Shown here: piece by piece, positions 2,386-45,622 of the stretch
Layout: each line of letters starts with the position of its first letter
Numbering within the stretch: the first letter of the stretch is position 1
NCBI GenBank assembly: GCA_025677605.1
Contig: GCA_025677605.1_4110.1
Reading direction: 5' to 3' (one strand)
DNA length: 64,000 nucleotides
Origin: a phage
Program-made: the position numbers and the translations under genes
The notes under the pieces: model-generated
What the model saw: the letters and a program-made list of their open reading frames with translations, nothing else
What the model was told of the DNA's origin: nothing
Database searches by the model: none

Positions 2386-2386
2386 A

Positions 2387-6086: not shown

Positions 6087-6091
6087 TAAAA

Positions 6092-8049: not shown

Positions 8050-8080
8050 AAAATACGCTCTCTTTTAAATAGGTTACAAT

Positions 8081-8109: not shown

Positions 8110-8116
8110 CCTATAA

Positions 8117-8141
8117 ACGAAAAAAGACCCATCAGGGTCTT
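8117..8141 (-). terminator. rho-independent terminator (possibly bidirectional)
   Basis: hairpin GACCC-atca-GGGTC flanked by A-run and T-run; overlaps stop of 8132..8683. Confidence 0.5.
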
Positions 8142-9312: not shown

Positions 9313-9316
9313 TCAA

Positions 9317-10412: not shown

Positions 10413-10421
10413 ATAGCACCT

Positions 10422-13112: not shown

Positions 13113-13168
13113 GATATGATCCTTTTCGTATTAGATGAAAAAGATTATATCATGCACAGAAGGAGGTG

Positions 13169-13705: not shown

Positions 13706-13707
13706 AA

Positions 13708-15506: not shown

Positions 15507-15732
15507 AGTGTTCGCTCATTTCATTCATATATTCATAGCACGATAGGTATATAATTTTTTTAATCATAAAAGACATATCAGATTTATCACTGTCCTCTGC
15601 AATACGAAAAATATAACGCATATTAGCAAAGATATAAAGAGGTATATCAGATGCTTCAGTACCAGAAAATATATCTATAATAAACCCATAACTGAAATCC
15701 GATGCTGGTGCTTGTTCAAAAGTATTGTCCAT
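15496..15732 (-). CDS. hypothetical small protein
   Basis: 78 aa ORF in array. Confidence 0.4.
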   Translation of the reverse strand: MDNTFEQAPASDFSYGFIIDIFSGTEASDIPLYIFANMRYIFRIAEDSDKSDMSFMIKKIIYLSCYEYMNEMSEHYDL

Positions 15733-15922
15733 TTTTCATCCTTATAATACCCAATAGGTACTTAATATACGTCTCAACTGAAGCCTCCTGGTATTGTGTC
15801 CCTATGTACATCAGTAACTGTAATTCCGACACGTCATTTTGATTGGAAGACCTGATTGCAGTGAACATTTGAGCACTGTATTGGTTAAGAATATCTTGCA
15901 TGTCTCTGTGTCTTATACCCAC
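15716..15922 (-). CDS. LGT-motif family small protein
   Basis: 68 aa; MYIGTQYQEASV. Confidence 0.5.
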   Translation of the reverse strand: MGIRHRDMQDILNQYSAQMFTAIRSSNQNDVSELQLLMYIGTQYQEASVETYIKYLLGIIRMKNGQYF

Positions 15923-16140
15923 GGTGACTCCCCCTTTCCTTGAACTTTATTCTGAATTAATTTCTGAAGGTTAAAAATGTAATCTTTCATCACAACCTCT
16001 TGATAATTAGTTCCAAGAAAATGATTCAACTTGTAATCATGATATGGTCGCCTCTTCTTCAAAAGGGGATGAAATGTATTCCATTTTGTGTAAATGTCAG
16101 AACACATCCTGTAGTACTGGTGTTTTGGAATATACTTCAT
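15913..16140 (-). CDS. LGT-motif family small protein
   Basis: 75 aa; HFLGTNYQEVVM. Confidence 0.5.
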   Translation of the reverse strand: MKYIPKHQYYRMCSDIYTKWNTFHPLLKKRRPYHDYKLNHFLGTNYQEVVMKDYIFNLQKLIQNKVQGKGESPWV

Positions 16141-16706
16141 AGTATACCATCAACGAATACATCTTCGAATTCAAATGTTGAAGTATCAATGTATAAATTA
16201 CTTCTGAAGTTCATTTGCATCTCCATATATAGACGTAGAATCATGTACATGTCATCAGTACATGACAATTGAAACATCTGCTCTTCAAATGCGTTGTAAT
16301 TGTATTTCGGGATTTCAATAGTACTACTCTTTACTGTATCCCACCAGTTCTGAATACCAAAATATAATTCAGTACTTTTTCCTGTATAAAACAAATTCAT
16401 GATTTGATTTTTTTCATTCAAGTACAAACGGTTCGTGCCGCATACGGCAATACCAATACCAATAAGTGTAAGTGCAGGAAGACCGTCACGTAATACACGA
16501 CAACGATGAAATGTACCACCCTTATAGACTGACTGTAGGTAGTATCCTTCTTTAATAATGTCTCGTGATGGAATCAAACCAGTACTGCAATCCTTAAGCA
16601 AAGGAACTATAATGTTGATTTTACGAGATAATTCCTGCATTTCCTCTGCATTGTAAGCATCAATAATCATTTCATGTGCACCTTTTGAATTAATATTACT
16701 GTGCAT
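16137..16706 (-). CDS. FQ-motif family protein
   Basis: 189 aa; motif EEQMFQLSCTD. Confidence 0.6.
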   Translation of the reverse strand: MHSNINSKGAHEMIIDAYNAEEMQELSRKINIIVPLLKDCSTGLIPSRDIIKEGYYLQSVYKGGTFHRCRVLRDGLPALTLIGIGIAVCGTNRLYLNEKNQIMNLFYTGKSTELYFGIQNWWDTVKSSTIEIPKYNYNAFEEQMFQLSCTDDMYMILRLYMEMQMNFRSNLYIDTSTFEFEDVFVDGIL

Positions 16707-16742
16707 TGTAACACAGTACAGGCTCTTGTCAATAGCATGAAC

Positions 16743-17189
16743 TCATTTTTTAGAACTAATCTTACGTAAGTACTCAAAGTAATCTAAATCAATGTATACC
16801 TGATCGTGCTTCAAGTTCATAGTACTAATAAGATAAAACAAACGTAATACATGTAGTTCTTCATGATTCAGTACTGTACTCAATTGAAAGTATCCTTCTT
16901 CATTACCTACACTTTGTATTGTCTCTCTGGTATACACTGTACGGTCATCACTACTGTCACGTACCACAATCAACTCGTCTGCAAGTGCATTATAGGAGAT
17001 GTAATTTGAATAAGAATTGAAAAATGATTGCTCTTCCGAGCACCCACCACAGAAAGTAAAATATACACACCCACCTTTCTCGTATTCAAGCTCACTACCC
17101 AATACGTTAGGATTATCATTGAAGTACTTGATTATTTGTACAATATCCTGAACCAACTTATCATTTACTTCATAATAATAAAAAAACAT
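16743..17189 (-). CDS. FQ-motif family protein
   Basis: 148 aa; motif EEGYFQLSTVL. Confidence 0.6.
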   Translation of the reverse strand: MFFYYYEVNDKLVQDIVQIIKYFNDNPNVLGSELEYEKGGCVYFTFCGGCSEEQSFFNSYSNYISYNALADELIVVRDSSDDRTVYTRETIQSVGNEEGYFQLSTVLNHEELHVLRLFYLISTMNLKHDQVYIDLDYFEYLRKISSKK

Positions 17190-17194
17190 TACAA

Positions 17195-17650
17195 TTACCT
17201 CTTATATTTCTGTGTCTCTATGTATTCATAATCCATATAGAAACATGTTGAATCTATACTTTTAAAGTACCACATAATGACCAGAGTATCGAGTTCATGT
17301 TCAGTATATACAGTACTTTGCTGAAAGTAATACTCTTCACTATCCCACGGACCATCCAGTACTGAAAACGGAATTGTCAAATCTTTAGCATAATAATCAG
17401 GGTTGTATACGGTTATATCTGACCCTGGGTAGTAATTGATAAAGTAGTACAAAGGGTTATAACCACAATTATCATGATCATAATCATCACATTGCAGTAC
17501 TAATGTATCAGAACCATCAAAATCCTCAATATTCTTCGTGCAATATTCAGTCTCTGACATTTTGAAGATACCTGGAATTTCTCCACCTTTGACCTTAATC
17601 ATGTACTCATGAATCTTCTTTGCTTCTTTTAATGCACTTTGTAACGACAT
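17195..17650 (-). CDS. FQ-motif family protein (close paralog triplet, copy 1)
   Basis: 151 aa; DGPWDSEEYYFQQSTVY; N-terminus MSLQSALKEAKKIHEY. Confidence 0.65.
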   Translation of the reverse strand: MSLQSALKEAKKIHEYMIKVKGGEIPGIFKMSETEYCTKNIEDFDGSDTLVLQCDDYDHDNCGYNPLYYFINYYPGSDITVYNPDYYAKDLTIPFSVLDGPWDSEEYYFQQSTVYTEHELDTLVIMWYFKSIDSTCFYMDYEYIETQKYKR

Positions 17651-18093
17651 TACAAATCCCCTGTACTTAAATATTCACATGCTCCCCAGTCAAGAAAGAA
17701 TGGTTCAAAATTCAATTCCTTAAAGTACCACAACACAACCAAGGAATCAAGCATTTCTTGGTTAAAAATGAGACTCTGTTGGAAGTAATACTCTTCAGTA
17801 CCCCACGGGCCATCAAGTACCCCGAAGTCAACAGGTGAATTTGATGTGTCAAAAGTAATCTTAGTACCTGGAATATATACCATAAAACTAGTATATTGAC
17901 TACATGAAGAGTACTGTATAGTATTGTCTTTATCATGACCCATAAGTAAAATATCAGCAGAGTATGTCTTTATACCTGATAGATAATACTCATTACCAAA
18001 TGCACTTACTTTATCACCATAGAACCCACTTTTTATGTTATCGTGGAAGTGATGTATTTTGTTGGCTAGTTCTAGTGCTCTTTCTAAACTCAT
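17650..18093 (-). CDS. FQ-motif family protein (close paralog triplet, copy 2)
   Basis: 147 aa; DGPWGTEEYYFQQSLIF. Confidence 0.65.
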   Translation of the reverse strand: MSLERALELANKIHHFHDNIKSGFYGDKVSAFGNEYYLSGIKTYSADILLMGHDKDNTIQYSSCSQYTSFMVYIPGTKITFDTSNSPVDFGVLDGPWGTEEYYFQQSLIFNQEMLDSLVVLWYFKELNFEPFFLDWGACEYLSTGDL

Positions 18094-18094
18094 T

Positions 18095-18577
18095 TCAACC
18101 CCTGTGAAGTTTATTAATACCGTTATCTACAGTTTTCTTTACGTATCTGTAATCGAAATAGAAGTTCTCAGAACCAATACTTTTAAAGTACCACATAATT
18201 ACAATACAATCAAGTTCTTCTTCATTGTATACAGTACTTTGTTGGAAGTAATACTCTTCACTATCCCACGGACCATCCAGTACTGCACACGGAATTATAA
18301 TGTCATCGGTATCGTGGACAGTACTGTAGATGGTAATATCTCCACCATTAACATAGACCATGTACTCATTATGCATATCAATGAAACATTCATAATCATT
18401 AGGGTCGGTATCTAGTACGCACGTTTCTGTATCTGGGAAGTCATTATCAATGAGGTTATCAGAGACATAATATTGAGTACTTGTGTCTTTGAAAATACCG
18501 TAAACTGAACCTTCTTTTGCCATATTCATGTACTCATGAATCTTCTTTGCTTCTTGTAATGCTCTTTTTAAACTCAT
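18095..18577 (-). CDS. FQ-motif family protein (close paralog triplet, copy 3)
   Basis: 160 aa; DGPWDSEEYYFQQSTVY; N-terminus MSLKRALQEAKKIHEY. Confidence 0.65.
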   Translation of the reverse strand: MSLKRALQEAKKIHEYMNMAKEGSVYGIFKDTSTQYYVSDNLIDNDFPDTETCVLDTDPNDYECFIDMHNEYMVYVNGGDITIYSTVHDTDDIIIPCAVLDGPWDSEEYYFQQSTVYNEEELDCIVIMWYFKSIGSENFYFDYRYVKKTVDNGINKLHRG

Positions 18578-18748
18578 TTCAACCCCTGTGAAGTGTCTTG
18601 ATATATTCTCTGTACGCCATGTGAATATTAGCTATATACAATTCTATACCGTACTTGTCATTTGTAATACAGTTCTTGTGTTGGATATCATTAACAAAAC
18701 GACGAATAACTGCATTCATTAATGATTCCATTTGTTCTTTTTTAAGCA

Positions 18749-19075
18749 TCAGTACTCCAGATTAATAGAATAAATGCAAGAACGAACTATTTGGTCCTTG
18801 TTATCTCTGTAGTACTTTTGTAATGCAAGGTACATAAAGAAATCGATTTCTTTATCCCATACTAATGATTCCTGAAATATAAAACTTTCATAGTTCTCCA
18901 TGTATTCACATTCGATGTAATTAGGAAGCTTATCTGTTTTGGATACGTACTCAATATTACATTCATTGAAATCACGAATAATCAATATAGGTGTTTTATT
19001 CAATGTAGTAAAAAAGCACGTATAAGTAAAACCACTTCCCATTGTACTTGAAGAAACATATATTTTAGTATTCAT
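18749..19075 (-). CDS. FQ-motif family protein
   Basis: 108 aa; motif YESFIFQESLVW. Confidence 0.55.
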   Translation of the reverse strand: MNTKIYVSSSTMGSGFTYTCFFTTLNKTPILIIRDFNECNIEYVSKTDKLPNYIECEYMENYESFIFQESLVWDKEIDFFMYLALQKYYRDNKDQIVRSCIYSINLEY

Positions 19076-19419
19076 TAGAATCTACTCTTAAGAAGTTTAT
19101 TACAGTGCTCATTGTATTCTTCCTCGGAAATAACTTGAGTACTGCTATTGTTGAAATGATTTCTATAATGACCAGTATTCAAACAGAATGATGCGTTATT
19201 GCGAGTTATAATGTATTTCACAATTTCTCCGCACCAGACTTCTCCAGTGAAAGTCTTTATTTTAATTTTAGTACCATTATGTTTTTTCTGAAGTACTACT
19301 TTTATTTCTTCGAACATTTCATTAAAGAACGAAAGACTTGTCCATCCGTGCATTAAATCTTCAATTTCATATAATGTATTCTGAAGAAGATCTATTTCAC
19401 GGTATTCATTGTATGTCAT
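19075..19419 (-). CDS. hypothetical protein (no FQ motif)
   Basis: 114 aa ORF coupled in array. Confidence 0.45.
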   Translation of the reverse strand: MTYNEYREIDLLQNTLYEIEDLMHGWTSLSFFNEMFEEIKVVLQKKHNGTKIKIKTFTGEVWCGEIVKYIITRNNASFCLNTGHYRNHFNNSSTQVISEEEYNEHCNKLLKSRF

Positions 19420-19430
19420 AGTTAAGACCC

Positions 19431-19787
19431 CTATAGATTGAAATAGTACTGAACAGTCTTGTGCTTATCTTGAGTTAATTCTATCATGCACTTCGCAGAG
19501 TATTCTTTCATGATATTCTGAATACCAATAACTTCATCTAGTGTACAAATATATTTCTTATCGAACACTAATGACTCCTGAAATAGAGTCGCCTCATCCA
19601 TTTCTGTATAGTCCAGTAGAGGTTCATTAACACCACCACCCACTCGACCGTAATCAATAAAAGAAAATCCATTTGAGGTGTACTTAATATATTGGTCCAA
19701 CGAATGATTGGTATCACCCTTAACGAGATTACAATAGAACTCAACCTTTTTGTAGAAAAAACTGTGAATAGCAAAATCATTGCTCAT
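19431..19787 (-). CDS. FQ-motif family protein
   Basis: 118 aa; motif DEATLFQESLVF. Confidence 0.6.
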   Translation of the reverse strand: MSNDFAIHSFFYKKVEFYCNLVKGDTNHSLDQYIKYTSNGFSFIDYGRVGGGVNEPLLDYTEMDEATLFQESLVFDKKYICTLDEVIGIQNIMKEYSAKCMIELTQDKHKTVQYYFNL

Positions 19788-20000
19788 AATAACCTCTACT
19801 ATAATTAATAAGGTAAACTACAATATAAGGAGCACGTTCGGCGGCGGGGTATTTTTTTGTTTAAGGAAACATGAACTGTACTCTGAAAAACACAATATAA
19901 AATTTTATATTAAACATATACCTTAACATGTTTTTCAGCGAAAATTTTTTTGACCCCCCAAAACGCCCCCAAAAACAAGCCTATATTTATCATTTTAAAA

Positions 20001-20567
20001 TTACCCCTTTTCCGCGACCTTATCAAACACGTACTGTATGTACTGATTCAATGCAATGAGATCGATATCTCTGTCAAATCTCAACGTTAACTTCTCTGTC
20101 AACTCCCCGAAGGTATCATAATAATGCTTAACAAAATAACGATATCGTATTGAATTATAATCGTGCAATGTACTGTACTGAAACACTACATCAGGACTAT
20201 ATGGCATCAAATCAATAAGCTCACTTACTTTTAATTTCTCATTTTCGCCATTATTTTTAACTGTTATATATTCATTTGAACTGAACCATGCACATGATAC
20301 ATCTGAACAAATTGATGTTGTACTGTAAAATCTATCTGTACTCACAAATAATACACTATGTGATTTGTTGGATTTTCTTTCGTAAATCGATAAATCCGAC
20401 ATAAGCGTAATGATTGGTTCGTGTCGAAATTTATTATGCTGGTACGTTTCCTGAAACGCATTCGGATTTTTGTAAATCCTATCTACAATTAAATACAACC
20501 CCTTGATGTATTCTAAATCATCTTCTATCGCTTTGCATGTACTTTCTATGTCCTGAAGGTCCAGCAT
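20001..20567 (-). CDS. FQ-motif family protein
   Basis: 188 aa; motif PDVVFQYSTLH. Confidence 0.6.
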   Translation of the reverse strand: MLDLQDIESTCKAIEDDLEYIKGLYLIVDRIYKNPNAFQETYQHNKFRHEPIITLMSDLSIYERKSNKSHSVLFVSTDRFYSTTSICSDVSCAWFSSNEYITVKNNGENEKLKVSELIDLMPYSPDVVFQYSTLHDYNSIRYRYFVKHYYDTFGELTEKLTLRFDRDIDLIALNQYIQYVFDKVAEKG

Positions 20568-21103
20568 TACTCCCCCTTAATCTCTTTGAGATCTTTTACT
20601 AACCTATCGTACCACGTTAAAGCTAAAAAGAAATTCGTTTTCACATTAGCACGTAATACATTATATACTTGCTGCACCTGTAAAACATAAGGATCTTGTA
20701 CTAAGGACTCCTGAAAATATTCTTCAGGACTCAGGATGTTAGGATTCAAGGTTGCAATATCAACGTGCTTTGTTAAACCAAAAAAGGTTTCTTCCTCTCT
20801 CTTGCTCATATCCAAATAACGAATCCAATTCACTGGAGCGAACTCTTCAGATGCTGATGTAGCCGATGTAATAGCATTGAACAAAAGACAATACTCTAAC
20901 TGCATCTTCTCACCTACAGCGTGCATTACCGTATCTCTCCTGTAATACACAATAGAGGGATACTTTTCAATATCGCTCTTAGGCTCAAGCCATCCTTCCT
21001 TGTGCTTAGGATAGATGTGGTCAAAATCCCCAGCCTCAAACGCCTGTACGATTTTTACTAAATTGTCAGCGAACTCGTACTCAAAATGTTTGTGCTGGAT
21101 CAT
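20567..21103 (-). CDS. FQ-motif family protein
   Basis: 178 aa; motif PEEYFQESLVQ. Confidence 0.6.
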   Translation of the reverse strand: MIQHKHFEYEFADNLVKIVQAFEAGDFDHIYPKHKEGWLEPKSDIEKYPSIVYYRRDTVMHAVGEKMQLEYCLLFNAITSATSASEEFAPVNWIRYLDMSKREEETFFGLTKHVDIATLNPNILSPEEYFQESLVQDPYVLQVQQVYNVLRANVKTNFFLALTWYDRLVKDLKEIKGE

Positions 21104-21130
21104 CTAAATCACTCCCGTCTTTGTTGTATT

Positions 21131-21166
21131 GTGTGTTATTGCATGTTATTGCATGTTATTGCGTAT
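21131..21166. repeat. short tandem repeat (TGTTATTGCA x3)
   Basis: tgtgttattgcatgttattgcatgttattgcg in intergenic spacer. Confidence 0.6.
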
Positions 21167-21804
21167 TATAACACAATCTCTTTTAACTTCAAAATGAAAT
21201 CTTCATATACTTTTATCTGAAAATGCGGACTCTGTGCACTGAAACTAAACCCAGGTTCAATCAATTTCTTGTACTCATTTGCATATTTGCACAACTTCAG
21301 GATTTCGGTAGGGTCCACCATATCCTTCTGTACTAAGGACATTTGAAAAAGCACTTCCTCTACACCCTCGTACTCTTGACCTGCAATGTAACATATGTCA
21401 TCGTCTAACGATAATGATATGAACGTCTTTGTACTTATTACATTACCATCTTTTGAAACACCATAATCTGCAACTGAATCCACAAAGGAATCCGGCTTAG
21501 ATGAACCTGCTATGTCGCAAATGTACTTGTCAATGTATGTGATGTTATTGTTGTTATCGAATATACCAAATGCTAATGACGTGTCAAATACTTCCCTGAA
21601 ACCAATTCTGTCACTACCGATAACTAAAACTAATTTACCACAGGATGCACTGTATCTGGATGCGGAATCAAATGGAATCTCCAATTTTGAATTCTCAGGG
21701 AAAATAGCATTGAACTTCTTTAGCATTTCAAACATATAAGGAACATGAGGCTCCATGAACTTCATCACCTCATACGGTGAAGCATTTCTGGGAAAATTAT
21801 GCAT
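21166..21804 (-). CDS. FQ-motif family protein
   Basis: 212 aa; motif EEVLFQMSLVQ. Confidence 0.6.
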   Translation of the reverse strand: MHNFPRNASPYEVMKFMEPHVPYMFEMLKKFNAIFPENSKLEIPFDSASRYSASCGKLVLVIGSDRIGFREVFDTSLAFGIFDNNNNITYIDKYICDIAGSSKPDSFVDSVADYGVSKDGNVISTKTFISLSLDDDICYIAGQEYEGVEEVLFQMSLVQKDMVDPTEILKLCKYANEYKKLIEPGFSFSAQSPHFQIKVYEDFILKLKEIVL

Positions 21805-38874: not shown

Positions 38875-39198
38875 TTACATATCTTTCTTACGTTTTACAT
38901 CGTTGTAGCGAACTGTGATTTCTTTGTTGATCTCTTTCTCAATGTGGTGAATAACTTTTTCTTTCGGGTTGAAACCTATAACCGTTTCTTTAATGATCTC
39001 CAAGCCCGTGTATTCGCCTTGTGTACCGTAACCGTAAGTAAAGGTTTCATGTCCCAGGTCTTCCCAGCGGTCGCCAATCAACGCAGACACGTAGCAAGAG
39101 TGGTAAGTATTGCCGTGTGAATCAGTCCACCGATTAACTTTAATGTCAAAGGATGTTACAATTTTCAGTTCTACTTTCTGGGTAAGGATCATAGCCAT
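38875..39198 (-). CDS. hypothetical protein (paralog of 44672..45016)
   Basis: 107 aa; GNTY...YGYG...DVKRKKD shared. Confidence 0.55.
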   Translation of the reverse strand: MAMILTQKVELKIVTSFDIKVNRWTDSHGNTYHSCYVSALIGDRWEDLGHETFTYGYGTQGEYTGLEIIKETVIGFNPKEKVIHHIEKEINKEITVRYNDVKRKKDM

Positions 39199-39286: not shown

Positions 39287-39469
39287 TTATTTTTTGGAAA
39301 GTTTACGCATTAATTCTACGCTTTCTTGTGAACGTTTTGCTACCTGGCAATCTGCATGGGCAGTAAACATTTTTGTATAGTCTGACGCTTTGCCACCGAA
39401 CCGAGCGGCACGTTCACGGGCACTTGGAACTAATACAATTTCTTTCTTACAGATAGTGCACTTAGCCAT
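39287..39469 (-). CDS. small Cys-rich protein (possible zinc ribbon)
   Basis: 60 aa; MAKCTICKK...HADCQ; paralog of 45392..45535. Confidence 0.5.
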   Translation of the reverse strand: MAKCTICKKEIVLVPSARERAARFGGKASDYTKMFTAHADCQVAKRSQESVELMRKLSKK

Positions 39470-39556
39470 TTTTATTTCTCTCTTTTAGTTAGGAGGGGAA
39501 CCATTCCCCTCACTTGATGTAAACTATTATACAGTACTAAGATACTTTGTCAATAC

Positions 39557-39832
39557 TTAAGTATTGTAAATGTCGTGAATAGTGATAAAGTTTTTACGAC
39601 CGTAAACCTGTAAATCAGTATCAATGTAGTGCTTATCAAGTACATCCTCGACGCTTAACGCGGTGTCGTGAATATCTTCATAGAATTGAGGATCTACAAT
39701 CTTGCTTAAGTCATCCGGCGTTAACTTATCGTTAAGCCATTGAACCGCCTGGATATCTGCTTCACGTTTCCAGTCTTGCAGGTTAGTAGTCAGTACTTGC
39801 TCGATTTCGTTAGCTGTCAGTAGAATCCGCAT
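39557..39832 (-). CDS. hypothetical protein
   Basis: 91 aa; ATG 39830-39832. Confidence 0.5.
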   Translation of the reverse strand: MRILLTANEIEQVLTTNLQDWKREADIQAVQWLNDKLTPDDLSKIVDPQFYEDIHDTALSVEDVLDKHYIDTDLQVYGRKNFITIHDIYNT

Positions 39833-39864
39833 TTTATGTTTCCTTATCAGTAGTTGATGTAAGT

Positions 39865-39892
39865 ATTATACTCGTTTACTTTCTATTGTCAA
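39865..39892 (-). promoter_or_regulatory. sigma70-like promoter (proximal, P2)
   Basis: minus strand TTGACA, 16 nt spacer, TATAAT. Confidence 0.5.
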
Positions 39893-39900
39893 ACTATTTT

Positions 39901-39972
39901 ATCAGGGGAGTTTTTCGTATGTCTTACTCCTGGACTACTTAACGGGGTTACTTGTTTCATTCCCCGTCCTGA
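39901..39972 (-). other. conserved three-stem structured RNA element (leader or small RNA), copy A
   Basis: outer stem ATCAGG/CCTGAT enclosing hairpins GGAGT/ACTCC and ACGGGG/CCCCGT; near-identical copy at 49947-50021. Confidence 0.5.
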
Positions 39973-39980
39973 TGTAAAAC

Positions 39981-40008
39981 ATTATACTTGATTCTAAGTA
40001 CAATGCAA
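39981..40008 (-). promoter_or_regulatory. sigma70-like promoter (distal, P1) reading into structured element
   Basis: minus strand TTGCAT, 16 nt spacer, TATAAT. Confidence 0.5.
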
Positions 40009-40054
40009 GTACTTTTTTAAAAATAGTTTTCAGTACTAGCCACCAGCAAACAAT

Positions 40055-40095
40055 AGATACATTTATGCACCCGGTGGGCTAGTTTTTGTCTATGC
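40055..40095 (-). repeat. conserved noncoding element, copy 3
   Basis: atgcacccggtgggctag; hairpin 40107-40136. Confidence 0.45.
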
Positions 40096-40147
40096 ATATA
40101 TAATAGCAAAGGGACTGACCGGAGTCAATCCCTTTTTTCAATTTATT

Positions 40148-40297
40148 TTATGCCTCGCGAGGGTTGCGATATGTGATAGCGTTCGGGTACATTTGTTTTA
40201 AGTTATTCCACGCCTGGTTAACACTGTATCCGCTGGACCGTATCAGTTGATGCATACCTTTACCCAAAAACGTAACTTCGAAAATGTATTCTTTCAT
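40148..40297 (-). CDS. hypothetical small protein (below ORF-track cutoff)
   Basis: 49 aa MKEYIFEVTFLGKGMHQ...; ATGA overlap with upstream ORF. Confidence 0.35.
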   Translation of the reverse strand: MKEYIFEVTFLGKGMHQLIRSSGYSVNQAWNNLKQMYPNAITYRNPREA

Positions 40298-40467
40298 GCT
40301 ACGGCCCCCTTGTCGGCTTTACCTTTACGCCAGGACGTTACTAATTGTTCGCGTTGCCATAAGTCGAGTGATACAAAAAGTTTTGCGGTATCACCCTTCG
40401 GATATTCGCCAGTAGTACCCATCCGATAAAACAAATCTTTCAGTACTGACAATTCTACATGGATCAT
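40294..40467 (-). CDS. hypothetical small protein (below ORF-track cutoff)
   Basis: 57 aa MIHVELSVLKDLFYR...; RBS aggag 9 nt upstream. Confidence 0.4.
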   Translation of the reverse strand: MIHVELSVLKDLFYRMGTTGEYPKGDTAKLFVSLDLWQREQLVTSWRKGKADKGAVA

Positions 40468-40468
40468 T

Positions 40469-40558
40469 TTAGATAACTCCTGCTTTGCTTAAGTAAACTA
40501 ATACGGCCTGTACTGCCATAATGATTGCAATTACTACTATGAACGGATTCATGTGCAT
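40469..40558 (-). CDS. possible hydrophobic mini-peptide
   Basis: 29 aa MHMNPFIVVIAIIMAVQAVLVYL...; single predicted helix. Confidence 0.25.
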   Translation of the reverse strand: MHMNPFIVVIAIIMAVQAVLVYLSKAGVI

Positions 40559-40645
40559 AACTGTTACCCTTATATGGTGGGGAGAAAACTTCTCCCCTTG
40601 ATGTAATTAATTATACAGTACTGTGATACTTTGTCAAATACTTTT

Positions 40646-40858
40646 TTAATCTTTCAGCCAATGATCTTGGATGAATTTTTCACCGAAGCCTTGCTGCATG
40701 GATTGTAACAGGCGTTCACGGTGTGCGGCGGCAAACTGCTCAGTACTATGCGTTACACCTGGTTGATATCTGGATTCACCATTGGGGGCGATGTATTGTA
40801 CATCCCACGGTTTAGCGTTAGTATCAGACCATTTACGAACGATTAGTTGACCTTGCAT
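40646..40858 (-). CDS. hypothetical small protein
   Basis: start moved to MQGQLIVRKW (ATG 40856-40858); ORF-track extension is the reverse of the 5' hairpin. Confidence 0.5.
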   Translation of the reverse strand: MQGQLIVRKWSDTNAKPWDVQYIAPNGESRYQPGVTHSTEQFAAAHRERLLQSMQQGFGEKFIQDHWLKD

Positions 40859-40944
40859 TTTTCTTTCCTCAGTACTGGGGAGAATCATTTCTCCCCTTCA
40901 TGTAACTTATTATACAGTACTATAATCTATTGTCTAGTACTTTT

Positions 40945-41139
40945 TTAAAGTTTATGTATCAGTTCTTTATCTAAGCGATAGCGTACATTATTAATAGTAA
41001 CGGCATTGTTTTTAATGCTACGCTGTACAGGTCCACCAGCAATAACAAACGTTGCCTTATTACCCCGAACAATGATAGCACTTCCTGGATTGCCGTATTC
41101 ATCTTGTACTAAAATACTTGATAAGTTTTCCATTTTCAT
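40945..41139 (-). CDS. hypothetical small protein
   Basis: 64 aa; RBS aagaggaa. Confidence 0.5.
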   Translation of the reverse strand: MKMENLSSILVQDEYGNPGSAIIVRGNKATFVIAGGPVQRSIKNNAVTINNVRYRLDKELIHKL

Positions 41140-41293
41140 TTCCTCTTAGTAGGGGAAGATGTTTCCCCTTCATGTAAAACATTATACACTATCTTTCAGT
41201 ACTGTCAATTACTTTTTAGTACTTATTTAAACGCTCTCAATCGCATTCTAACGAGCTAATCTATTTTGTAGTACTATCGGATAGGTATATACT

Positions 41294-41323
41294 AAAAAGC
41301 CCACCAGCGTTAACCAGTGGGCT
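41294..41323 (-). terminator. rho-independent terminator
   Basis: AGCCCAC...GTGGGCT hairpin followed by T-run on minus strand. Confidence 0.5.
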
Positions 41324-41329
41324 ATAATC

Positions 41330-41473
41330 TTACATCTTGCGGATAATCTTAACAGTATCTTTCACCGATTTACCGTCTTGCTGGCATTGTTCGATCATTG
41401 CGTATTGTTCTGCGGTCAGATCTTCGCCAGTTTTTGCCAGTACTGCTTCGATGAATGAATCCAGTGCGATCAT
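41330..41473 (-). CDS. hypothetical small protein (below ORF-track cutoff)
   Basis: 47 aa MIALDSFIEAVLAKTGEDL... Confidence 0.35.
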   Translation of the reverse strand: MIALDSFIEAVLAKTGEDLTAEQYAMIEQCQQDGKSVKDTVKIIRKM

Positions 41474-41572
41474 TTTGTTTCTCTCTTAGGTTAAGTTAAC
41501 TACTGTTTATAAAACTTATTATACAGTACTATCAAACTATGTCAATATCTTTAATAGTACTGGTAATATATT

Positions 41573-41752
41573 TTAGCGGTAGTCGTCGTATGCTTTATTC
41601 ACCTGGCGAATGTAACTTTCAAAGGCTTCGTCTACCGTTTCATACTCCCGAACATAATCACCATAGGAAACTACATACATCCCTTTTTGATCTTCAAACG
41701 TCATGATGATAGAATCCAGGCCGATGATTTCAGTTTTTGCGATGATAGCCAT
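41573..41752 (-). CDS. hypothetical small protein (MAII family)
   Basis: start moved to MAIIAKTEII with RBS aaggaa; paralog of 45097..45309 with the same promoter sequence upstream. Confidence 0.5.
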   Translation of the reverse strand: MAIIAKTEIIGLDSIIMTFEDQKGMYVVSYGDYVREYETVDEAFESYIRQVNKAYDDYR

Positions 41753-41834
41753 TTTTAATTCCTTAGTAGTGTAGTTGATAAAATCTATTATGCCAGTACT
41801 ATCAATCTTTGTCAATAGTACTGTGATAATATTT

Positions 41835-42047
41835 TTAATCGATAATGGTTAATGTAAAGTTATAATCACCGCATCGATATAGCACGTTATTCCCAAATGT
41901 TCCAACCAATCGCACATCACACAAAACGCCAGTTTTTTCTTTTACTTCCTTGATACTTGTAACTCCTGTAATATCTTTATTAAAGTATTCATGGTCTGAA
42001 AATAAAACTTGTTTTGCATTTTTCAATTTCGACCGGATATTAGCCAT
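41835..42047 (-). CDS. hypothetical small protein
   Basis: 70 aa; ATG 42045-42047. Confidence 0.5.
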   Translation of the reverse strand: MANIRSKLKNAKQVLFSDHEYFNKDITGVTSIKEVKEKTGVLCDVRLVGTFGNNVLYRCGDYNFTLTIID

Positions 42048-42142
42048 TTTGTTTTCTCTCTCTGTTAGTGGGGAGAACTATTCTCCCCTTGATGTAAACT
42101 ATTATACAGTACTATAATCTATTGTCAAACTATTTTTTAATA

Positions 42143-42484
42143 TTATTCGAAATCTTCTGGACCGGACTGATAATCATCTTCACCGTATGCACTTTCTAAC
42201 TTCTCGCCAGTGCAATCATCAGTTAGTGAGTCATCCTCATAGTTCACGTCTACGCCCGTGATGTAAAACTGGCTATCGTATGGATCATTGAAATTAATTT
42301 TCTGAATGTTTACAATAACTGTATTGATGCCCAGGACACCGCCATCAGCCGTTACAAAGTACTGATAGTTTTCACATCCACCACTATTGAAACCGTAATT
42401 GATTTCGGCCCGACCATCATTTAAACGCAGTGCCTGAGCGATGAATTCGTTTTCAAAGTTAGATTGAGCAATTGCAATAGTCAT
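42143..42484 (-). CDS. hypothetical acidic protein
   Basis: 113 aa; ATG 42482-42484. Confidence 0.5.
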   Translation of the reverse strand: MTIAIAQSNFENEFIAQALRLNDGRAEINYGFNSGGCENYQYFVTADGGVLGINTVIVNIQKINFNDPYDSQFYITGVDVNYEDDSLTDDCTGEKLESAYGEDDYQSGPEDFE

Positions 42485-42583
42485 GATTCGTTTCCTTATT
42501 ACCAGGGGAAACGGTTTCCCCTTGCTATGTAAAACATTATACTTGATTCTAAGTACAATGCAAGTACTTTTTGCAAAATACTT

Positions 42584-42766
42584 TTAATCCCTTTGATACT
42601 CACATAACGCCATATCATACGCAATTGACGCTGATTTGAAATCATCGTGTCGCTCAATCTCTTTCATGTCAACATAGATGATCCATAGGTTTACGTCTTC
42701 CTGGCGTATGATAACGGCAGGTTTACCGATGATATGTGATGCCGCTAGTTCGATTGGATTAAACAT
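42584..42766 (-). CDS. hypothetical small protein
   Basis: 60 aa; RBS aaggag. Confidence 0.5.
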   Translation of the reverse strand: MFNPIELAASHIIGKPAVIIRQEDVNLWIIYVDMKEIERHDDFKSASIAYDMALCEYQRD

Positions 42767-42799
42767 TGTAGTACTCCTTATTAGATTGATATATTTTAT

Positions 42800-42840
42800 T
42801 TACACTTCCGCACCCTGTGGGCTAGTGAGCTATCTCTCAA
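42800..42840 (-). repeat. conserved noncoding element, copy 4
   Basis: ccgcaccctgtgggctag; hairpin 42859-42886. Confidence 0.45.
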
Positions 42841-43108
42841 TGAATATATAATAGCAAAATGGCTGACCGAAGTCAACCACTTTTTTCATTTATTTTTAGC
42901 TTTTAGAATCGCCGCTTTTCGCGTCATGCCTTGCTTGATGTACTCCTTTACTTTCGCTTTACGTGCTTTCGCTTTATCTGCTTTCGTTTTAGGAGTACTG
43001 TAAATTAAACCGTTAGGATTCATTTAAATCACCATAAAGAATAGATAGGTTACTAACAATGCCGCGATCAATGCACCGATCACCGCCGAACTGTAATAAG
43101 CCAATGAT

Positions 43109-43261
43109 TTCATTTTTTAGCCTGGAAGTAATGTTTAATTTGTGCGGCGGTCAATGCACAATTACGCAGGAAGTTTTCTGTATAACTGCGACGAGTACTG
43201 AAAGAAAATTGACCTTTGCCGTTGCCGATAGTAACATCAAACCGAGCATTATATTGTTTCA
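43109..43261 (-). CDS. hypothetical small protein (below ORF-track cutoff)
   Basis: 50 aa MKQYNARFDVTIGNGKGQF...; followed by two further mini-ORFs 43023..43112 and 42885..43022. Confidence 0.3.
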
Positions 43262-43575
43262 TTTTGATTCTCCTAGTATCAGGGGAGAACCATTTCCCCC
43301 CCCTCTATGTAAAACATTATACAGTACTAAAAACTAATTGCAAGTACTATTTTTTAGATTTACGCAAACTTTCTACCATCTCAGGAGTAAGGCCCGGCGG
43401 GTAGGAAACCACTTCATCAACGAAACGTAAAGGGAATACCCCAGCGAAAGGTGAACATGCTTTCTTAGTATTACTCTTTTTTGATGCTTTCATTTCATAT
43501 TCCTTAATTAGTGGGAAGTACTATTTCTCCCCTTCATGTAAAACATTATACAGTACTAAAAACTAATTGCAAGTA

Positions 43576-43818
43576 TTATTTTAAACTTTGTGCGACTAAT
43601 TTCGCACGGTCAATCATATACTGCCATTTTTTGATCTCTTCTGGTAGAAAACGATATTCACCAATAACAATAGTGATACACTTTTCAGCCTGGTCAATGT
43701 ATGTAGTGTCAATCTCGACTTGAACGGGTACACGTTCGCCGTAATCAGTGCCAGGGATAATACAATCATTATCATAAGTAACAGTAGTAGCAGTGTCTTT
43801 GATTAAAATTGTTTCCAT
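43576..43818 (-). CDS. hypothetical small protein
   Basis: 80 aa; ATG 43816-43818. Confidence 0.5.
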   Translation of the reverse strand: METILIKDTATTVTYDNDCIIPGTDYGERVPVQVEIDTTYIDQAEKCITIVIGEYRFLPEEIKKWQYMIDRAKLVAQSLK

Positions 43819-43888
43819 TATACTTTCCTCGTTAGGTGTAAGGGGAAAAAGTTTCCCCTCTATGTAAACAATTATACAGTACTGAAAA

Positions 43889-44098
43889 CTAATTGCAAGT
43901 ATTATTTTCTAAAAAATGATTGTATGCTGCATCAACCACTCTTTCGATAACATACGCCAACGGCACGTATCCAACTACATGACTACAATAGAAAGGACTA
44001 CGATTAGAATCATCGTATGCAAATACTTTACCAGGTACGGCATCAATCACATACATATTAACCTTTAAGATGTCGATCTTATCCTGTACAGTAAGCAT
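43889..44098 (-). CDS. hypothetical small protein
   Basis: start moved to MLTVQDK (ATG 44096-44098). Confidence 0.45.
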   Translation of the reverse strand: MLTVQDKIDILKVNMYVIDAVPGKVFAYDDSNRSPFYCSHVVGYVPLAYVIERVVDAAYNHFLENNTCN

Positions 44099-44099
44099 A

Positions 44100-44270
44100 T
44101 TACGCCGCCTTATCAGTACTAGCAACCGGACGGATACGGGCCATCGCCTGGGCTTGTTCTACGCTGTATTGTTCGTATAGTCTGCATTCTTCCGGTGTAG
44201 GAATAGCATCAATACGTTTCATTGGTTTAATGATGCTTTCAACTTCATTCAGTACTTGATTAACGTTCAT
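44100..44270 (-). CDS. hypothetical small protein (below ORF-track cutoff)
   Basis: 56 aa MNVNQVLNEVESIIKP... Confidence 0.35.
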   Translation of the reverse strand: MNVNQVLNEVESIIKPMKRIDAIPTPEECRLYEQYSVEQAQAMARIRPVASTDKAA

Positions 44271-44321
44271 GGTATTATCCTCAATATTAGCGGCCTAAAT
44301 CAACCGCTAACGATGTTTTGA

Positions 44322-44591
44322 TTAATAGGTGTATGGTTGACGCTCAAACAATGAATAGACGTTATACGCCCCGCTAATGGGCTTCGCTGGCAAATCAATT
44401 TTATATTGTTCACGCTTAAAGATAATAAAACGGCAATTGTTTTTTACATCAAAATTGATTGAACGTTCCAGGAGTTTTCCATCGTGTACAAATACAAGAT
44501 AACCGCTTGGTACTTGTTTTGTAGTACTGGTTGCAACCATAGACCGACGAACATGCGTACCTGCATCGATTAAAGTACTGATATTTTTCAT
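44322..44591 (-). CDS. hypothetical protein
   Basis: 89 aa; ATG 44589-44591. Confidence 0.5.
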   Translation of the reverse strand: MKNISTLIDAGTHVRRSMVATSTTKQVPSGYLVFVHDGKLLERSINFDVKNNCRFIIFKREQYKIDLPAKPISGAYNVYSLFERQPYTY

Positions 44592-44671
44592 TATACTATC
44601 CTCTTAAGTTAATTTAATTTCTTTCCCCTATGCAGACACTATATCAAAGTATCTGCATAAAGTAAAGCTAA

Positions 44672-45016
44672 TTAAAGATCTTTTTTGCGTTTAACATCAG
44701 TTACCGAACTGTAAACAGTGATATTATTGTCACGGCAAAAACGGGAAAGATAAGAACCGCGTAAAAACTCTTTACCTTCCATATCAATAACCTTGCTAAA
44801 TTCATCCATTGCTACGGTGTCAAAGTGATCCCCGTATCCATATTGGAACGGCACGTTTACTACTTCAATAAAATTACCATCAATTTCTACGTCTACACTT
44901 AAAGAGAAATAAGTGTTACCATATGAAGCCTGGAACCAACGCCGAGCGGCAATATGTACAACTTCAACAGAAGACAGGTTGATATTTTGTGCTGTGATAG
45001 TGTTGATGTTAGCCAT
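44672..45016 (-). CDS. hypothetical protein (paralog of 38875..39198)
   Basis: 114 aa; ...YGYG...DVKRKKDL. Confidence 0.55.
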   Translation of the reverse strand: MANINTITAQNINLSSVEVVHIAARRWFQASYGNTYFSLSVDVEIDGNFIEVVNVPFQYGYGDHFDTVAMDEFSKVIDMEGKEFLRGSYLSRFCRDNNITVYSSVTDVKRKKDL

Positions 45017-45096
45017 TTTTAGTTTCCTCAGTTGTTTTGATAAAATCTATTATGCCAGTACTATCAATCTATGTCAATAGTACTGTGATAATAATT

Positions 45097-45309
45097 TTAC
45101 TTACTTTCTTTCGATGCTTTATGTTGTGCAACTGCCATTACTACATCAGCACGAACAAAGTTTTTAACCGTGTCAGTGTAATAATTGATTGCATCGTCTA
45201 TATCTGCGAACGTCCGATACATACCGCACCAAGATACTTTATAACCTGCTTTCACTTGTTCCAGCTTAACCAGTGATTTGTTTACTTTGATTTTAGTAAT
45301 GATAGCCAT
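45097..45309 (-). CDS. hypothetical small protein (MAII family)
   Basis: 70 aa MAIITKIKV... Confidence 0.5.
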   Translation of the reverse strand: MAIITKIKVNKSLVKLEQVKAGYKVSWCGMYRTFADIDDAINYYTDTVKNFVRADVVMAVAQHKASKESK

Positions 45310-45391
45310 TTTTTGTTTCCTCTTAGTTGTCTTGATAAAATCTATTATGCCAGTACTATCAAACTATGTCAATAGTACTGTGATAATATTT

Positions 45392-45535
45392 TTACTTACT
45401 TTTTGCTTTCTTTGCTGCTTCCACCTGGTCGGCCCACTCTTTACCCCATACTTGAGCATTATAGTGATACTGACAAAGAGCAACGCCCCGCTTCAAACCA
45501 GTAATAGATTTTTTACCACATTGACAAGTTTTCAT
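45392..45535 (-). CDS. small Cys-rich protein (possible zinc ribbon; below ORF-track cutoff)
   Basis: 47 aa MKTCQCGKKSITGLKRGVALCQYH...; paralog of 39287..39469. Confidence 0.4.
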   Translation of the reverse strand: MKTCQCGKKSITGLKRGVALCQYHYNAQVWGKEWADQVEAAKKAKSK

Positions 45536-45622
45536 TTTAGTTTCCTCTTAGTGGGGAGAACCATTTTCTCCCCTTGATGTAATGTATTATACTTTATCTG
45601 ATTTACTTTGCAAGTACTTTTT

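What the first reader, a model, noticed from the sequence alone, without database searches (positions are those of the whole stretch)
39287..45535. Small Cys-rich paralogs (possible zinc ribbons)
39287..39469 (MAKCTICKK...HADCQ) and 45392..45535 (MKTCQCGKK...ALCQYH) share a CxxC-GKK N-terminus and a second Cys/His pair; both are basic. They may be small nucleic-acid-binding regulators.
Basis: inference. Interest (0 to 1): 0.35.

Follow-up and report, generated by a model that had tools for sequence, protein, structure and literature searches.

The report
Two unrelated phage zinc-finger mini-proteins
Two tiny, basic, cysteine-containing genes in the early-gene region of a giant E. coli phage are real and conserved and probably bind zinc, but they belong to two unrelated families rather than being duplicates, and what they do is still unknown.

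Summary
Both ORFs exist with the quoted sequences, but on the minus strand: ORF1 39287..39469, 60 aa; ORF2 45392..45535, 47 aa. The window is an Asteriusvirus (121Q/G17-like) jumbo phage. Each ORF has its own near-consensus sigma-70 promoter, a 5' hairpin and a Shine-Dalgarno site, and both are under purifying selection (dN/dS 0.09-0.19).

They are not detectable paralogs. BLASTP gives E=0.17, the alignment score is z~1 against shuffles, and profile-profile probability is 0.15-7.5%, covering only the N-terminal knuckle. The ligand patterns also differ: C4-x2-C7-x30-H38-x2-C41 versus C4-x-C6-x14-C21-x2-H24.

ORF1 belongs to phrog_8738, found in jumbo, phi92-like, N4-like and other phages. Its four ligands and eight other residues are invariant in 61 sequences. 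ORF2 belongs to a family absent from Pfam, PHROGs, NCBIfam and PDB. That family has 176 clusters, almost all metagenomic, and its ligands are conserved in 151-156 of 156 sequences.

AlphaFold models put the second ligand pair at a helix N-terminus, which is treble-clef-like, not a zinc ribbon. Net positive charge is conserved in both families.

Function is untested. My favoured reading is zinc-stabilised early binding modules for a polyanionic or nucleic-acid-associated target. This is ordinary phage dark matter of modest interest.

The parts
39287..39469 (-). ORF1, 60 aa (stop included). Putative C2HC zinc mini-protein with ligands C4, C7, H38, C41. Member of phrog_8738.
   Evidence: ORF listed. 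phrog_8738 E=3.7e-27. 27 homologues with C4/C7/H38/C41 invariant; still invariant in 61 distinct sequences. dN/dS 0.17-0.19. AF2 pLDDT 88, with a beta-hairpin knuckle and a helix starting at H38/C41.
39526..39553 (-). Sigma-70 consensus promoter of the ORF1 cassette (TTGACA-16-TATAAT, 12/12).
39491..39514 (-). 5'-UTR hairpin (GAGGGGAA-UGG-UUCCCCUC) between promoter and SD of ORF1. Its loop ATG (39504) opens a 10-codon uORF that stops before the ORF1 ATG.
   Evidence: dG -13.9 kcal/mol, z -2.0.
45392..45535 (-). ORF2, 47 aa (stop included). Putative C2CH zinc mini-protein with ligands C4, C6, C21, H24, then a conserved WGKxWAD helix. Its family is not in any catalogue searched.
   Evidence: ORF listed. 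6 close homologues. 176 representative clusters at E<=1e-3. C4 151/156, C6 151/156, C21 156/156, H24 155/156. dN/dS 0.09. AF2 pLDDT 79. No Pfam, PHROG, NCBIfam or PDB hit.
45586..45613 (-). Sigma-70-like promoter of the ORF2 cassette (TTGCAA-16-TATAAT, 10/12).
45553..45573 (-). 5'-UTR hairpin (GGGGAGAA-AAUGG-UUCUCCCC) upstream of the ORF2 SD (AAGAGGAAA, 45541..45549). Its loop ATG (45564) opens a 10-codon uORF whose TGA overlaps the ORF2 ATG.
   Evidence: dG -13.8 kcal/mol, z -2.0.
38875..39198 (-). Context only: 107-aa phrog_6246 gene immediately downstream of ORF1. It is a true paralog of 44672..45016.
   Evidence: Restricted to Asteriusvirus.
44672..45016 (-). Context only: 114-aa phrog_6246 gene two genes downstream of ORF2.

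Best explanation
ORF1 and ORF2 are two evolutionarily unrelated single-domain mini-proteins. Each is most likely folded around one Zn(II) ion held by an N-terminal beta-hairpin knuckle (CxxC in ORF1, CxC in ORF2) and a Cys/His pair at the start of an alpha-helix. ORF1 is C2HC and ORF2 is C2CH, and both are treble-clef-like.

Each is a self-contained early-gene cassette: a strong host-type sigma-70 promoter, a GC hairpin, a Shine-Dalgarno site and the ORF. The cassettes sit in the hyperplastic region of an Asteriusvirus jumbo phage that is annotated as terminal repeat in a relative. Host RNA polymerase should therefore transcribe them immediately after DNA entry.

Both cassettes are found in unrelated phage lineages and have no conserved neighbours, so each protein should act alone.

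Shown here: the genes are real and under purifying selection; the ligand residues are conserved; the two families are unrelated; the promoter and RBS architecture is present; the cassettes vary by presence or absence in related phages.

Inferred: zinc binding, early timing and function.

My committed guess for function, at about 45%, is that each is a zinc-stabilised basic module that binds a polyanionic target. That target would be nucleic acid, or a conserved component of the nucleic-acid machinery of the host or phage. The protein would tune gene expression or genome protection early in infection. Inhibition of a non-nucleic-acid host protein, such as a defence or metabolic protein, is the main alternative at about 35%.
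For: Real genes:
- dN/dS 0.09-0.19 against orthologues in BF17, ALITA, EmilieFrey and Klebsiella RCIP0023.
- 27 to 61 family-1 sequences and 150+ family-2 clusters.

Ligand conservation:
- Family 1: C4, C7, H38 and C41 in 61/61 sequences.
- Family 2: C21 156/156, H24 155/156, C4 and C6 151/156.

Topology: AF2 pLDDT 88 and 79, with the knuckle between two short strands and the second ligand pair at a helix N-terminus.

Unrelatedness.

Expression signals:
- A 12/12 and a 10/12 sigma-70 promoter, a hairpin and an SD.
- The same promoter pattern occurs 15 times in the window against 1.7 expected.
- The PEV2 homologue gp24 carries the GenBank note 'Transcribed in early infection (RNA-Seq data)'.

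Terminal-repeat location: the ORF2 orthologue lies inside the annotated 21.5-kb DTR of vB_Ec-M-J, and the gene next to ORF1 is also under that DTR feature.

Mobility and autonomy:
- The ORF1 cassette, including the RBS and the downstream promoter, is nearly identical at DNA level in the Justusliebigvirus ALITA (56/60 aa identical), and it is absent at the syntenic site of EmilieFrey. The converse holds for ORF2.
- No recurrent neighbour appears in 35 IMG/VR loci or in metagenomic contigs.

Conserved positive charge: family 1 is 98% positive with median +4.7. Family-2 proteins of 80 aa or less are 93% positive with median +4.6.
Against: There is no experimental or homology-based link to any function.
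- Foldseek against PDB gives nothing. BFVD returns only uncharacterised family members.
- One orthologue cluster of ORF2 (P0030, 17 member sequences, on a 350-kb contig) has Tyr in place of C6. Either three ligands suffice or zinc is dispensable there.
- Positive charge is common among neighbouring small ORFs (11 of 41) and is weak evidence for nucleic-acid binding.
- Early timing in this phage is inferred from promoter sequence and genome position only.
Confidence: 0.6

Rival explanations
1. The two ORFs are diverged paralogs of one zinc-ribbon family, produced by duplication within the phage.
For: Both start M-x-K/T-C and have a knuckle followed by Lys residues. Both are basic, and both carry 3 Cys + 1 His. 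Each lies upstream of a phrog_6246 paralog, which could suggest a segmental duplication. In the wider family 2 the knuckle often reads CTICGK, as in family 1.
Against: BLASTP E=0.17. Alignment z about 1. hhalign probability 0.15% and 7.5%, knuckle only. Ligand spacing is 30 versus 14 residues and the order is H..C versus C..H. The conserved non-ligand motifs are entirely different: LVPSAxERA...Y..LF versus S[IV]PGL...QYH[YW]N...WGKxWAD. The intervening gene content differs, and the phrog_6246 linkage is not seen outside Asteriusvirus. The predicted topology is not a zinc ribbon.
Confidence: 0.05
2. They are host-takeover or anti-defence inhibitors that work purely by protein-protein interaction with a host protein. 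Zinc would serve only as a structural staple, in the manner of small early phage proteins such as T7 Gp2, T4 AsiA or LUZ24 Mip.
For: They sit in an early, accessory, presence/absence-variable cassette. They are very small and function alone. From general knowledge, most characterised small early phage proteins are protein binders. The ORF1 C-terminal helix has a sub-threshold match to the anti-silencing protein Mip (NF041858 E=0.06, 13 bits against a cutoff of 50; phrog_10887 E=0.16).
Against: The Mip match is far below threshold and covers only a generic basic helix that is absent from the Litunavirus homologues. No PHROG, Pfam or NCBIfam family of known function matched either protein; the anti-defence library (PADLOC) was not searched. 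The strict conservation of ORF1's core across phages of E. coli, Klebsiella, Pseudomonas, Erwinia, Rhodobacter and Photobacterium would need a very conserved host target.
Confidence: 0.3
3. One or both ORFs are non-functional remnants or chance ORFs in an AT-rich intergenic-like array.
For: They are very short (47 and 60 aa), annotated only as 'hypothetical protein', and ORF2 has no PHROG.
Against: dN/dS 0.09-0.19. Each has a dedicated promoter and SD. Hundreds of homologues at 35-70% identity keep the Cys/His and aromatic positions invariant. There are no Rfam or tRNA features at these positions.
Confidence: 0.02

Closest known systems
PHROG phrog_8738 (unknown function)
   Same: ORF1 matches the full 50-position profile at E=3.7e-27. 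The family includes PEV2 gp24 and LIT1-group homologues with the same CxxC-x30-HxxC core.
   Different: ORF1 and other enterobacterial members carry an extra basic C-terminal helix (residues about 48-60) that the Litunavirus proteins lack. No member has a known function.
Treble-clef zinc fingers (structural class: a zinc knuckle plus two ligands from the first turn of a helix; from general knowledge of zinc-finger classification)
   Same: Both AF2 models have a beta-hairpin carrying the first Cys pair and an alpha-helix that begins at the second ligand pair.
   Different: Foldseek found no significant match to any solved treble-clef protein. The class is a convergent structural motif, not a homologous family. 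Metal binding was not tested.
Small phage zinc-finger regulators: Mu Com (translational activator of mom) and P2 Ogr / P4 Delta (late-gene activators)
   Same: They are small (about 60-80 aa), basic, phage-encoded, single zinc site proteins that act on RNA or on RNA polymerase. This is from general knowledge and is an analogy for how ORF1 and ORF2 could work.
   Different: Pfam scans at permissive thresholds returned no match to these families. The ligand patterns differ (Cys4 versus C2HC or C2CH). The genes here are sigma-70-driven early cassettes, not late-switch regulators.
PeSL (promoter-early stem-loop) cassettes of T4-type phages (PMC2839356; PMC4122927)
   Same: A strong sigma-70-like promoter followed by a stem-loop flanks small non-essential ORFs in hyperplastic regions, and cassettes are exchanged between phages. 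About 38 such promoters, about 28 with a hairpin, lie on the minus strand at 33-53 kb. The ORF1 cassette is shared with a Justusliebigvirus.
   Different: The phage lineage is different (Asteriusvirus). Terminator activity of the hairpins and PeSL-mediated recombination or mini-circles were not tested here. The hairpins lack an obvious U-tract.
E. coli YacG (zinc-finger gyrase inhibitor)
   Same: Recalled from memory as a lead: a small CxxC...C-x3-C finger followed by a G-E-W-A segment, reminiscent of the WGKEWAD of ORF2.
   Different: YacG did not appear in the Pfam scan, in the PDB profile search at E<=10, or in Foldseek against PDB. Rejected as a relative.

Membership tests
Single paralogous family containing both ORF1 and ORF2 | Significant pairwise or profile-profile sequence similarity | tested here: not met
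   BLASTP E=0.17. Shuffle z about 1. hhalign probability 0.15% and 7.5% over 10 knuckle columns.
Single paralogous family containing both ORF1 and ORF2 | Equivalent metal-ligand positions and spacing | tested here: not met
   C4/C7/H38/C41 versus C4/C6/C21/H24. The spacer is 30 versus 14 residues and the order is HxxC versus CxxH.
Zinc ribbon fold | Two zinc knuckles, each in a beta-hairpin, forming a three-stranded sheet | tested here: not met
   DSSP on the AF2 models places the second ligand pair at helix N-termini (ORF1 H39-59; ORF2 H22-30). Only one short hairpin is present. There are no Foldseek hits to zinc ribbons.
Treble-clef zinc finger (structural class) | N-terminal knuckle in a beta-hairpin plus two ligands from the first turn of a helix | tested here: met
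   Predicted secondary structure for both models. This is a prediction only.
Treble-clef zinc finger (structural class) | Tetrahedral coordination of one Zn(II) by the four Cys/His residues | not testable with these tools
Ligand conservation is indirect support. The natural C6Y variant (P0030) is a caveat.
phrog_8738 | Full-length match to the family HMM | tested here: met
   ORF1 residues 1-47 against profile positions 4-50 of 50, E=3.7e-27. ORF2 has no PHROG match.
Anti-silencing protein Mip (NCBIfam NF041858) | Score above the curated cutoff (50 bits) | tested here: not met
   ORF1 scores 13 bits, E=0.06, C-terminal helix only.
Known Pfam zinc-finger families (zf-FCS and the rest of Pfam-A) | Score above the gathering threshold | tested here: not met
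   The best hit is zf-FCS at 12.8 bits against a cutoff of 22.4, for the ORF1 knuckle only. ORF2 and 125 relatives give only scattered sub-threshold hits.
PeSL-type regulatory cassette | Strong sigma-70 promoter immediately followed by a stable stem-loop, repeated between small ORFs | tested here: met
PeSL-type regulatory cassette | The stem-loop acts as a terminator, and the cassettes mediate recombination or mini-circles | not testable with these tools
   Only presence/absence polymorphism and a conserved cassette boundary were seen.

The most novel reading that the evidence does not exclude
The ORF2 family would be a previously undescribed zinc-binding mini-domain. Its signature is C-x(1-4)-C-G-K-P-S-[IVL]-P-G-L-x(2-5)-C-Q-Y-H-[YW]-N-x3-[WFY]-G-K-x-W-A-D.

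It has at least 176 clusters at 50% identity. Apart from E. coli Asteriusvirus and phi92-like phages, almost all are known only from metagenomes. It is absent from Pfam, PHROGs, NCBIfam and PDB, and a pattern scan did not find it in 185,579 species-representative bacterial genomes.

Under this reading it is restricted to virulent phages and targets a conserved bacterial process early in infection. ORF1 (phrog_8738), with its invariant LxPSAxERA...Y...F..H..C core, could be a second such factor.
Probability: 0.3. Interest if true: 0.45.

Novelty: new member of a known kind. Interest (0 to 1): 0.25.

Why it matters
If either protein proves to be a specific early effector, for example of transcription, nucleoid proteins or a defence system, it would add a compact 45-60-residue zinc module to the set of phage host-takeover tools. 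It would also give a function to a family spread across jumbo, phi92-like and N4-like phages.

As it stands, the value is mostly housekeeping:
- The 'paralog / zinc ribbon' reading is corrected.
- ORF2 is placed in a sizeable uncatalogued family.
- The region is shown to be a PeSL-like array of shufflable early cassettes in an Asteriusvirus terminal-repeat region.

Tried and rejected
1. Paralogy of ORF1 and ORF2. Rejected by BLASTP, shuffle statistics and two hhalign runs.

2. Sequence homology to solved structures. Profile searches of PDB with A1, A2 and A3 found nothing significant.

3. Fold homology. Foldseek against PDB found nothing for either model. BFVD returned only uncharacterised members of ORF1's own family.

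4. Pfam, NCBIfam and PHROGs scans of the ORFs, of all family members and of the longer fused members. There were no supra-threshold hits apart from phrog_8738. PADLOC was not searched.

5. A remembered resemblance of ORF2 to the repeated 'C..C...GLC..HY.R...G' motif at the N-terminus of actinophage HNH endonucleases. The listed 150 of 176 HMM hits are all 223 aa or shorter. The ten long members scanned showed no HNH domain. tblastn with a divergent member hit only E. coli phages. Not supported.

6. A remembered resemblance of ORF2 to YacG. Not supported.

7. Mip-like anti-silencing for ORF1. Sub-threshold.

8. A functional module with the adjacent phrog_6246 gene. The neighbour of the Klebsiella homologue is unrelated, phrog_6246 is confined to Asteriusvirus, and no neighbour recurs across 35 IMG/VR loci.

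9. Linkage to RNAP2 in Litunavirus. It is not seen in other lineages.

10. The Migulavirinae anti-defence hotspot paper (bioRxiv 10.64898/2026.06.04.730250). Its hotspot is gp57-61 at about 41-43 kb, not the gp24 locus.

11. A genome-contig scan with A3 failed because the alignment was too diverse. With A2 it found no bacterial copies.

12. Measuring Cys-Cys distances in the models. Coordinates were not exposed.

Full report
**Observation.** Six-frame ORF listing shows both ORFs exactly as quoted, but on the minus strand.
- ORF1 is 39287..39469(-), 60 aa: MAKCTICKKEIVLVPSARERAARFGGKASDYTKMFTAHADCQVAKRSQESVELMRKLSKK.
- ORF2 is 45392..45535(-), 47 aa: MKTCQCGKKSITGLKRGVALCQYHYNAQVWGKEWADQVEAAKKAKSK.

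The plus-strand reading of the same coordinates is non-coding. A scan of all ATG ORFs of 150 aa or less with two Cys/His pairs found only these two on the coding strand. The other hits are antisense artefacts. Both are basic: pI 9.9 and 9.7, net charge about +7.

**Where the window comes from.** Megablast places it in Asteriusvirus jumbo phages of E. coli (121Q, PBECO4, G17, BF17, A4) at 90-96% identity. In BF17 both ORFs are annotated as hypothetical proteins. GC skew and ORF density show that about 1-53 kb is transcribed on the minus strand. No Rfam family or tRNA lies in the region.

**Are they paralogs?** No.
- BLASTP finds only a 7-residue out-of-register match, E=0.17.
- Local and global BLOSUM62 scores are z=1.0-1.1 against 2000 shuffles.
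- I built a family alignment for each ORF: A1 with 27 sequences and A2 with 7. hhalign between them gives 0.15% probability.
- I expanded ORF2's family with an exhaustive HMM search, which returned 176 representative clusters at E<=1e-3, and re-aligned 125 domains as A3. hhalign against A1 then gives 7.5%, limited to 10 columns of the N-terminal knuckle.
- Ligand patterns differ: ORF1 is C4-x2-C7-x30-H38-x2-C41, and ORF2 is C4-x-C6-x14-C21-x2-H24.
- The conserved non-ligand motifs are unrelated. Family 1 has [IV]-x-L-x-P-S-A-x-E-R-A ... G ... Y ... F-x2-H-x2-C. Family 2 has S-[IVL]-P-G-L ... C-Q-Y-H-[YW]-N-x3-[WFY]-G-K-x-W-A-D.

One real paralogy does exist nearby. The 107-aa gene downstream of ORF1 (38875..39198) and the 114-aa gene two genes downstream of ORF2 (44672..45016) are both phrog_6246 (BLASTP 8e-10). 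That family is confined to Asteriusvirus. The neighbour of the Klebsiella ORF1 homologue is unrelated. The linkage is therefore lineage-specific.

**Are they real genes?** Yes.
- Nei-Gojobori dN/dS is 0.17-0.19 for ORF1 against BF17, ALITA and Klebsiella RCIP0023, and 0.09 for ORF2 against BF17 and EmilieFrey.
- In family 1, across 61 distinct sequences, C4, C7, L13, P15, S16, A17, R20, G25, Y31, F35, H38 and C41 are all invariant.
- In family 2, across 156 sequences, C21 is present in 156, H24 in 155, and C4 and C6 in 151 each. G13, G31, W34 and A35 exceed about 87%.
- One ORF2 orthologue cluster (P0030, 17 members) has Y at position 6.

**Expression signals.** Each ORF has its own cassette.
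- ORF1: TTGACA-16-TATAAT (12/12) at 39553..39526. Then comes an 8-bp G-rich hairpin (dG -13.9 kcal/mol, z -2.0), the SD AGAGAGA and the ATG.
- ORF2: TTGCAA-16-TATAAT at 45613..45586. Then comes a hairpin (dG -13.8), the SD AAGAGGAAA and the ATG.

The minus strand between about 33 and 53 kb carries about 38 such promoters, and about 28 of them have the hairpin. The consensus pattern with a 17-nt spacer occurs 15 times against 1.7 expected. This architecture matches the promoter-early stem-loop (PeSL) cassettes described for hyperplastic regions of T4-type phages (PMC2839356; PMC4122927).

In vB_Ec-M-J the ORF2 orthologue lies inside an annotated 21.5-kb direct terminal repeat, and the gene next to ORF1 is also under that DTR feature. 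The PEV2 homologue of ORF1 (gp24) carries the GenBank note 'Transcribed in early infection (RNA-Seq data)'. Early expression by host RNAP is therefore a well-founded inference, but it is not shown for this phage.

**Distribution.**

ORF1 is a member of phrog_8738 (E=3.7e-27). By tblastn it occurs in 124 phage records:
- Asteriusvirus;
- two Justusliebigvirus (ALITA, BME3);
- the Klebsiella jumbo phage RCIP0023;
- Pseudomonas phage nickie;
- Erwinia UCB24;
- many N4-like Litunavirus (LIT1, PEV2, PA26, YH6);
- Rhodobacter and Photobacterium phages.

It also occurs in 35 IMG/VR contigs. The Litunavirus version is only 50 aa and ends just after the second ligand pair. The core domain is therefore residues about 1-47, and the ORF1 C-terminal helix is an add-on.

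ORF2 has no PHROG, Pfam or NCBIfam match. Among cultured phages it is found only in Asteriusvirus, in E. coli phages of about 140-155 kb such as EmilieFrey/Bas61, and as a partial match in one Aeromonas phage. Metagenomes hold at least 176 clusters, in arrays of small phage ORFs. A pattern scan of 185,579 species-representative bacterial and archaeal genomes found no copy.

Neither family has a recurrent neighbour.

In Justusliebigvirus the two genes are presence/absence cassettes at different sites of one syntenic array. The ORF1 cassette is nearly identical at DNA level between this window and ALITA, through the RBS, the ORF and the downstream promoter (56/60 aa identical). This indicates recent lateral exchange.

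**Structure.**
- The AlphaFold2 model of ORF1 has pLDDT 88. It shows two short strands around C4/C7, helices at 17-24 and 28-32, and a long helix at 39-59 that begins at H38/C41.
- The ORF2 model has pLDDT 79. It shows strands around C4/C6, a helix at 22-30 that begins at C21/H24, and a helix at 32-45.

Both are treble-clef-like and neither is a zinc ribbon. Foldseek against PDB gives no significant match. BFVD returns only uncharacterised ORF1 relatives. PDB sequence-profile searches are empty.

**Mechanism.**

Shown: there are two unrelated, conserved, autonomous, laterally mobile mini-genes with strong host-type promoters.

Inferred: one structural Zn per protein, immediate-early expression, and action as stand-alone binding modules.

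Net positive charge is conserved in both families. Family 1 is 98% positive with median +4.7. Family-2 proteins of 80 aa or less are 93% positive with median +4.6. ORF1's core is nearly invariant across phages of very different Proteobacteria, which points to a highly conserved target.

I therefore favour, at about 45%, binding to nucleic acid or to a conserved nucleic-acid-associated machine. This is functionally analogous to Mu Com or P2 Ogr (general knowledge), without homology. Pure protein-protein inhibition of a host factor stands at about 30-35%. A sub-threshold similarity of ORF1's C-terminal helix to the anti-silencing protein Mip (13 bits against a cutoff of 50) is noted but is not evidence.

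**Novelty and verdict.** Small uncharacterised zinc-finger ORFs in phage early regions are commonplace. ORF1 is already catalogued in a PHROG of unknown function. ORF2's family is uncatalogued but is of a known kind. The zinc-binding idea is plausible. The nucleic-acid-binding idea remains open. Interest is low to moderate.

Noticed in passing
window ~33,000-53,200, minus strand: An array of about 38 near-consensus sigma-70 promoters (TTGACA or TTGCAA, 16-17 nt, TATAAT). About 28 are followed about 12 nt later by an 8-9-bp G-rich hairpin, then an SD and a small ORF. This resembles the PeSL (promoter-early stem-loop) cassettes of T4-type hyperplastic regions. I have not seen it described for Asteriusvirus.
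   Followed up: partly
window 38875..39198(-) and 44672..45016(-): True paralogs: 107 and 114 aa, both phrog_6246, BLASTP E=8e-10, with shared GNTY...F.YGYG...DVKRKKD motifs. The family is restricted to Asteriusvirus in the phage collection. Function unknown.
   Followed up: partly
window 45533..45564(-) and 39472..39504(-): The loop of each 5' hairpin contains an ATG that opens a 10-codon uORF (MVLPTKRKLK*, MVPLLTKREK*). The ORF2 uORF stop TGA overlaps the ORF2 ATG (AAATGA). In related phages a 1-nt difference puts this ATG in frame. That explains the N-terminally extended database gene calls (P0029 and P0030 'MVLP...', P0002 'MVHCLTKREIK...'), which are probably mis-starts.
   Followed up: partly
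OQ718158.1 (vB_Ec-M-J) 1..21525; orthologous to window ~38-47 kb: The orthologous region lies inside an annotated 21.5-kb direct terminal repeat. Records of 370-384 kb (BF17, G17, fEgEco12, WPEC3/5) carry the ORF1 and ORF2 genes twice. The genes are thus probably diploid in the virion DNA.
   Followed up: partly
L010 (ALITA) 2400-2790 versus window 39230-39600(-); L011 (EmilieFrey) 2501-2659: The ORF1 cassette is nearly DNA-identical between an Asteriusvirus and a Justusliebigvirus, including the RBS and the downstream promoter. ORF1 and ORF2 homologues are mutually exclusive insertions at different sites of the same syntenic small-ORF array in ALITA and EmilieFrey. This is evidence for recent cassette exchange between unrelated E. 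coli myoviruses.
   Followed up: partly
P0030 (cluster of 17 sequences, 350-kb contig): A natural C6-to-Y substitution at a putative zinc ligand of the ORF2 orthologue, in an otherwise 96%-identical protein.
   Followed up: no
window ~53,500-54,500: The GC-skew sign flips from negative to positive at about 54 kb, and two plus-strand consensus-like promoters appear at 47806 and 52460. This suggests a switch of transcription direction at the edge of the early array.
   Followed up: no
L001 (BF17) 4991-5248 versus window ~40.5-41.5 kb: Several relatives (BF17, 121Q, ph0011, vB_Ec-M-J) carry a DksA/TraR-type C4 zinc-finger gene in this array. The Cys-pair scan found no such ORF in this window, and the closest relative (phage A4) also lacks the annotation. 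This is another presence/absence cassette.
   Followed up: partly
P0131, P0138, P0159; P0051, P0053, P0060, P0065, P0086; P0101 (metagenomic family-2 members): Some ORF2-family proteins carry C-terminal extensions: a shared 'VG[LI][YF]xEEAVRNAY...YN' domain, a second Cys cluster (WVHG..C..C...GIYR...C..C), or a fragment of a HAD/PNKP-like phosphatase motif (DLDGT, sub-threshold). None matched Pfam or PHROGs above threshold.
   Followed up: partly
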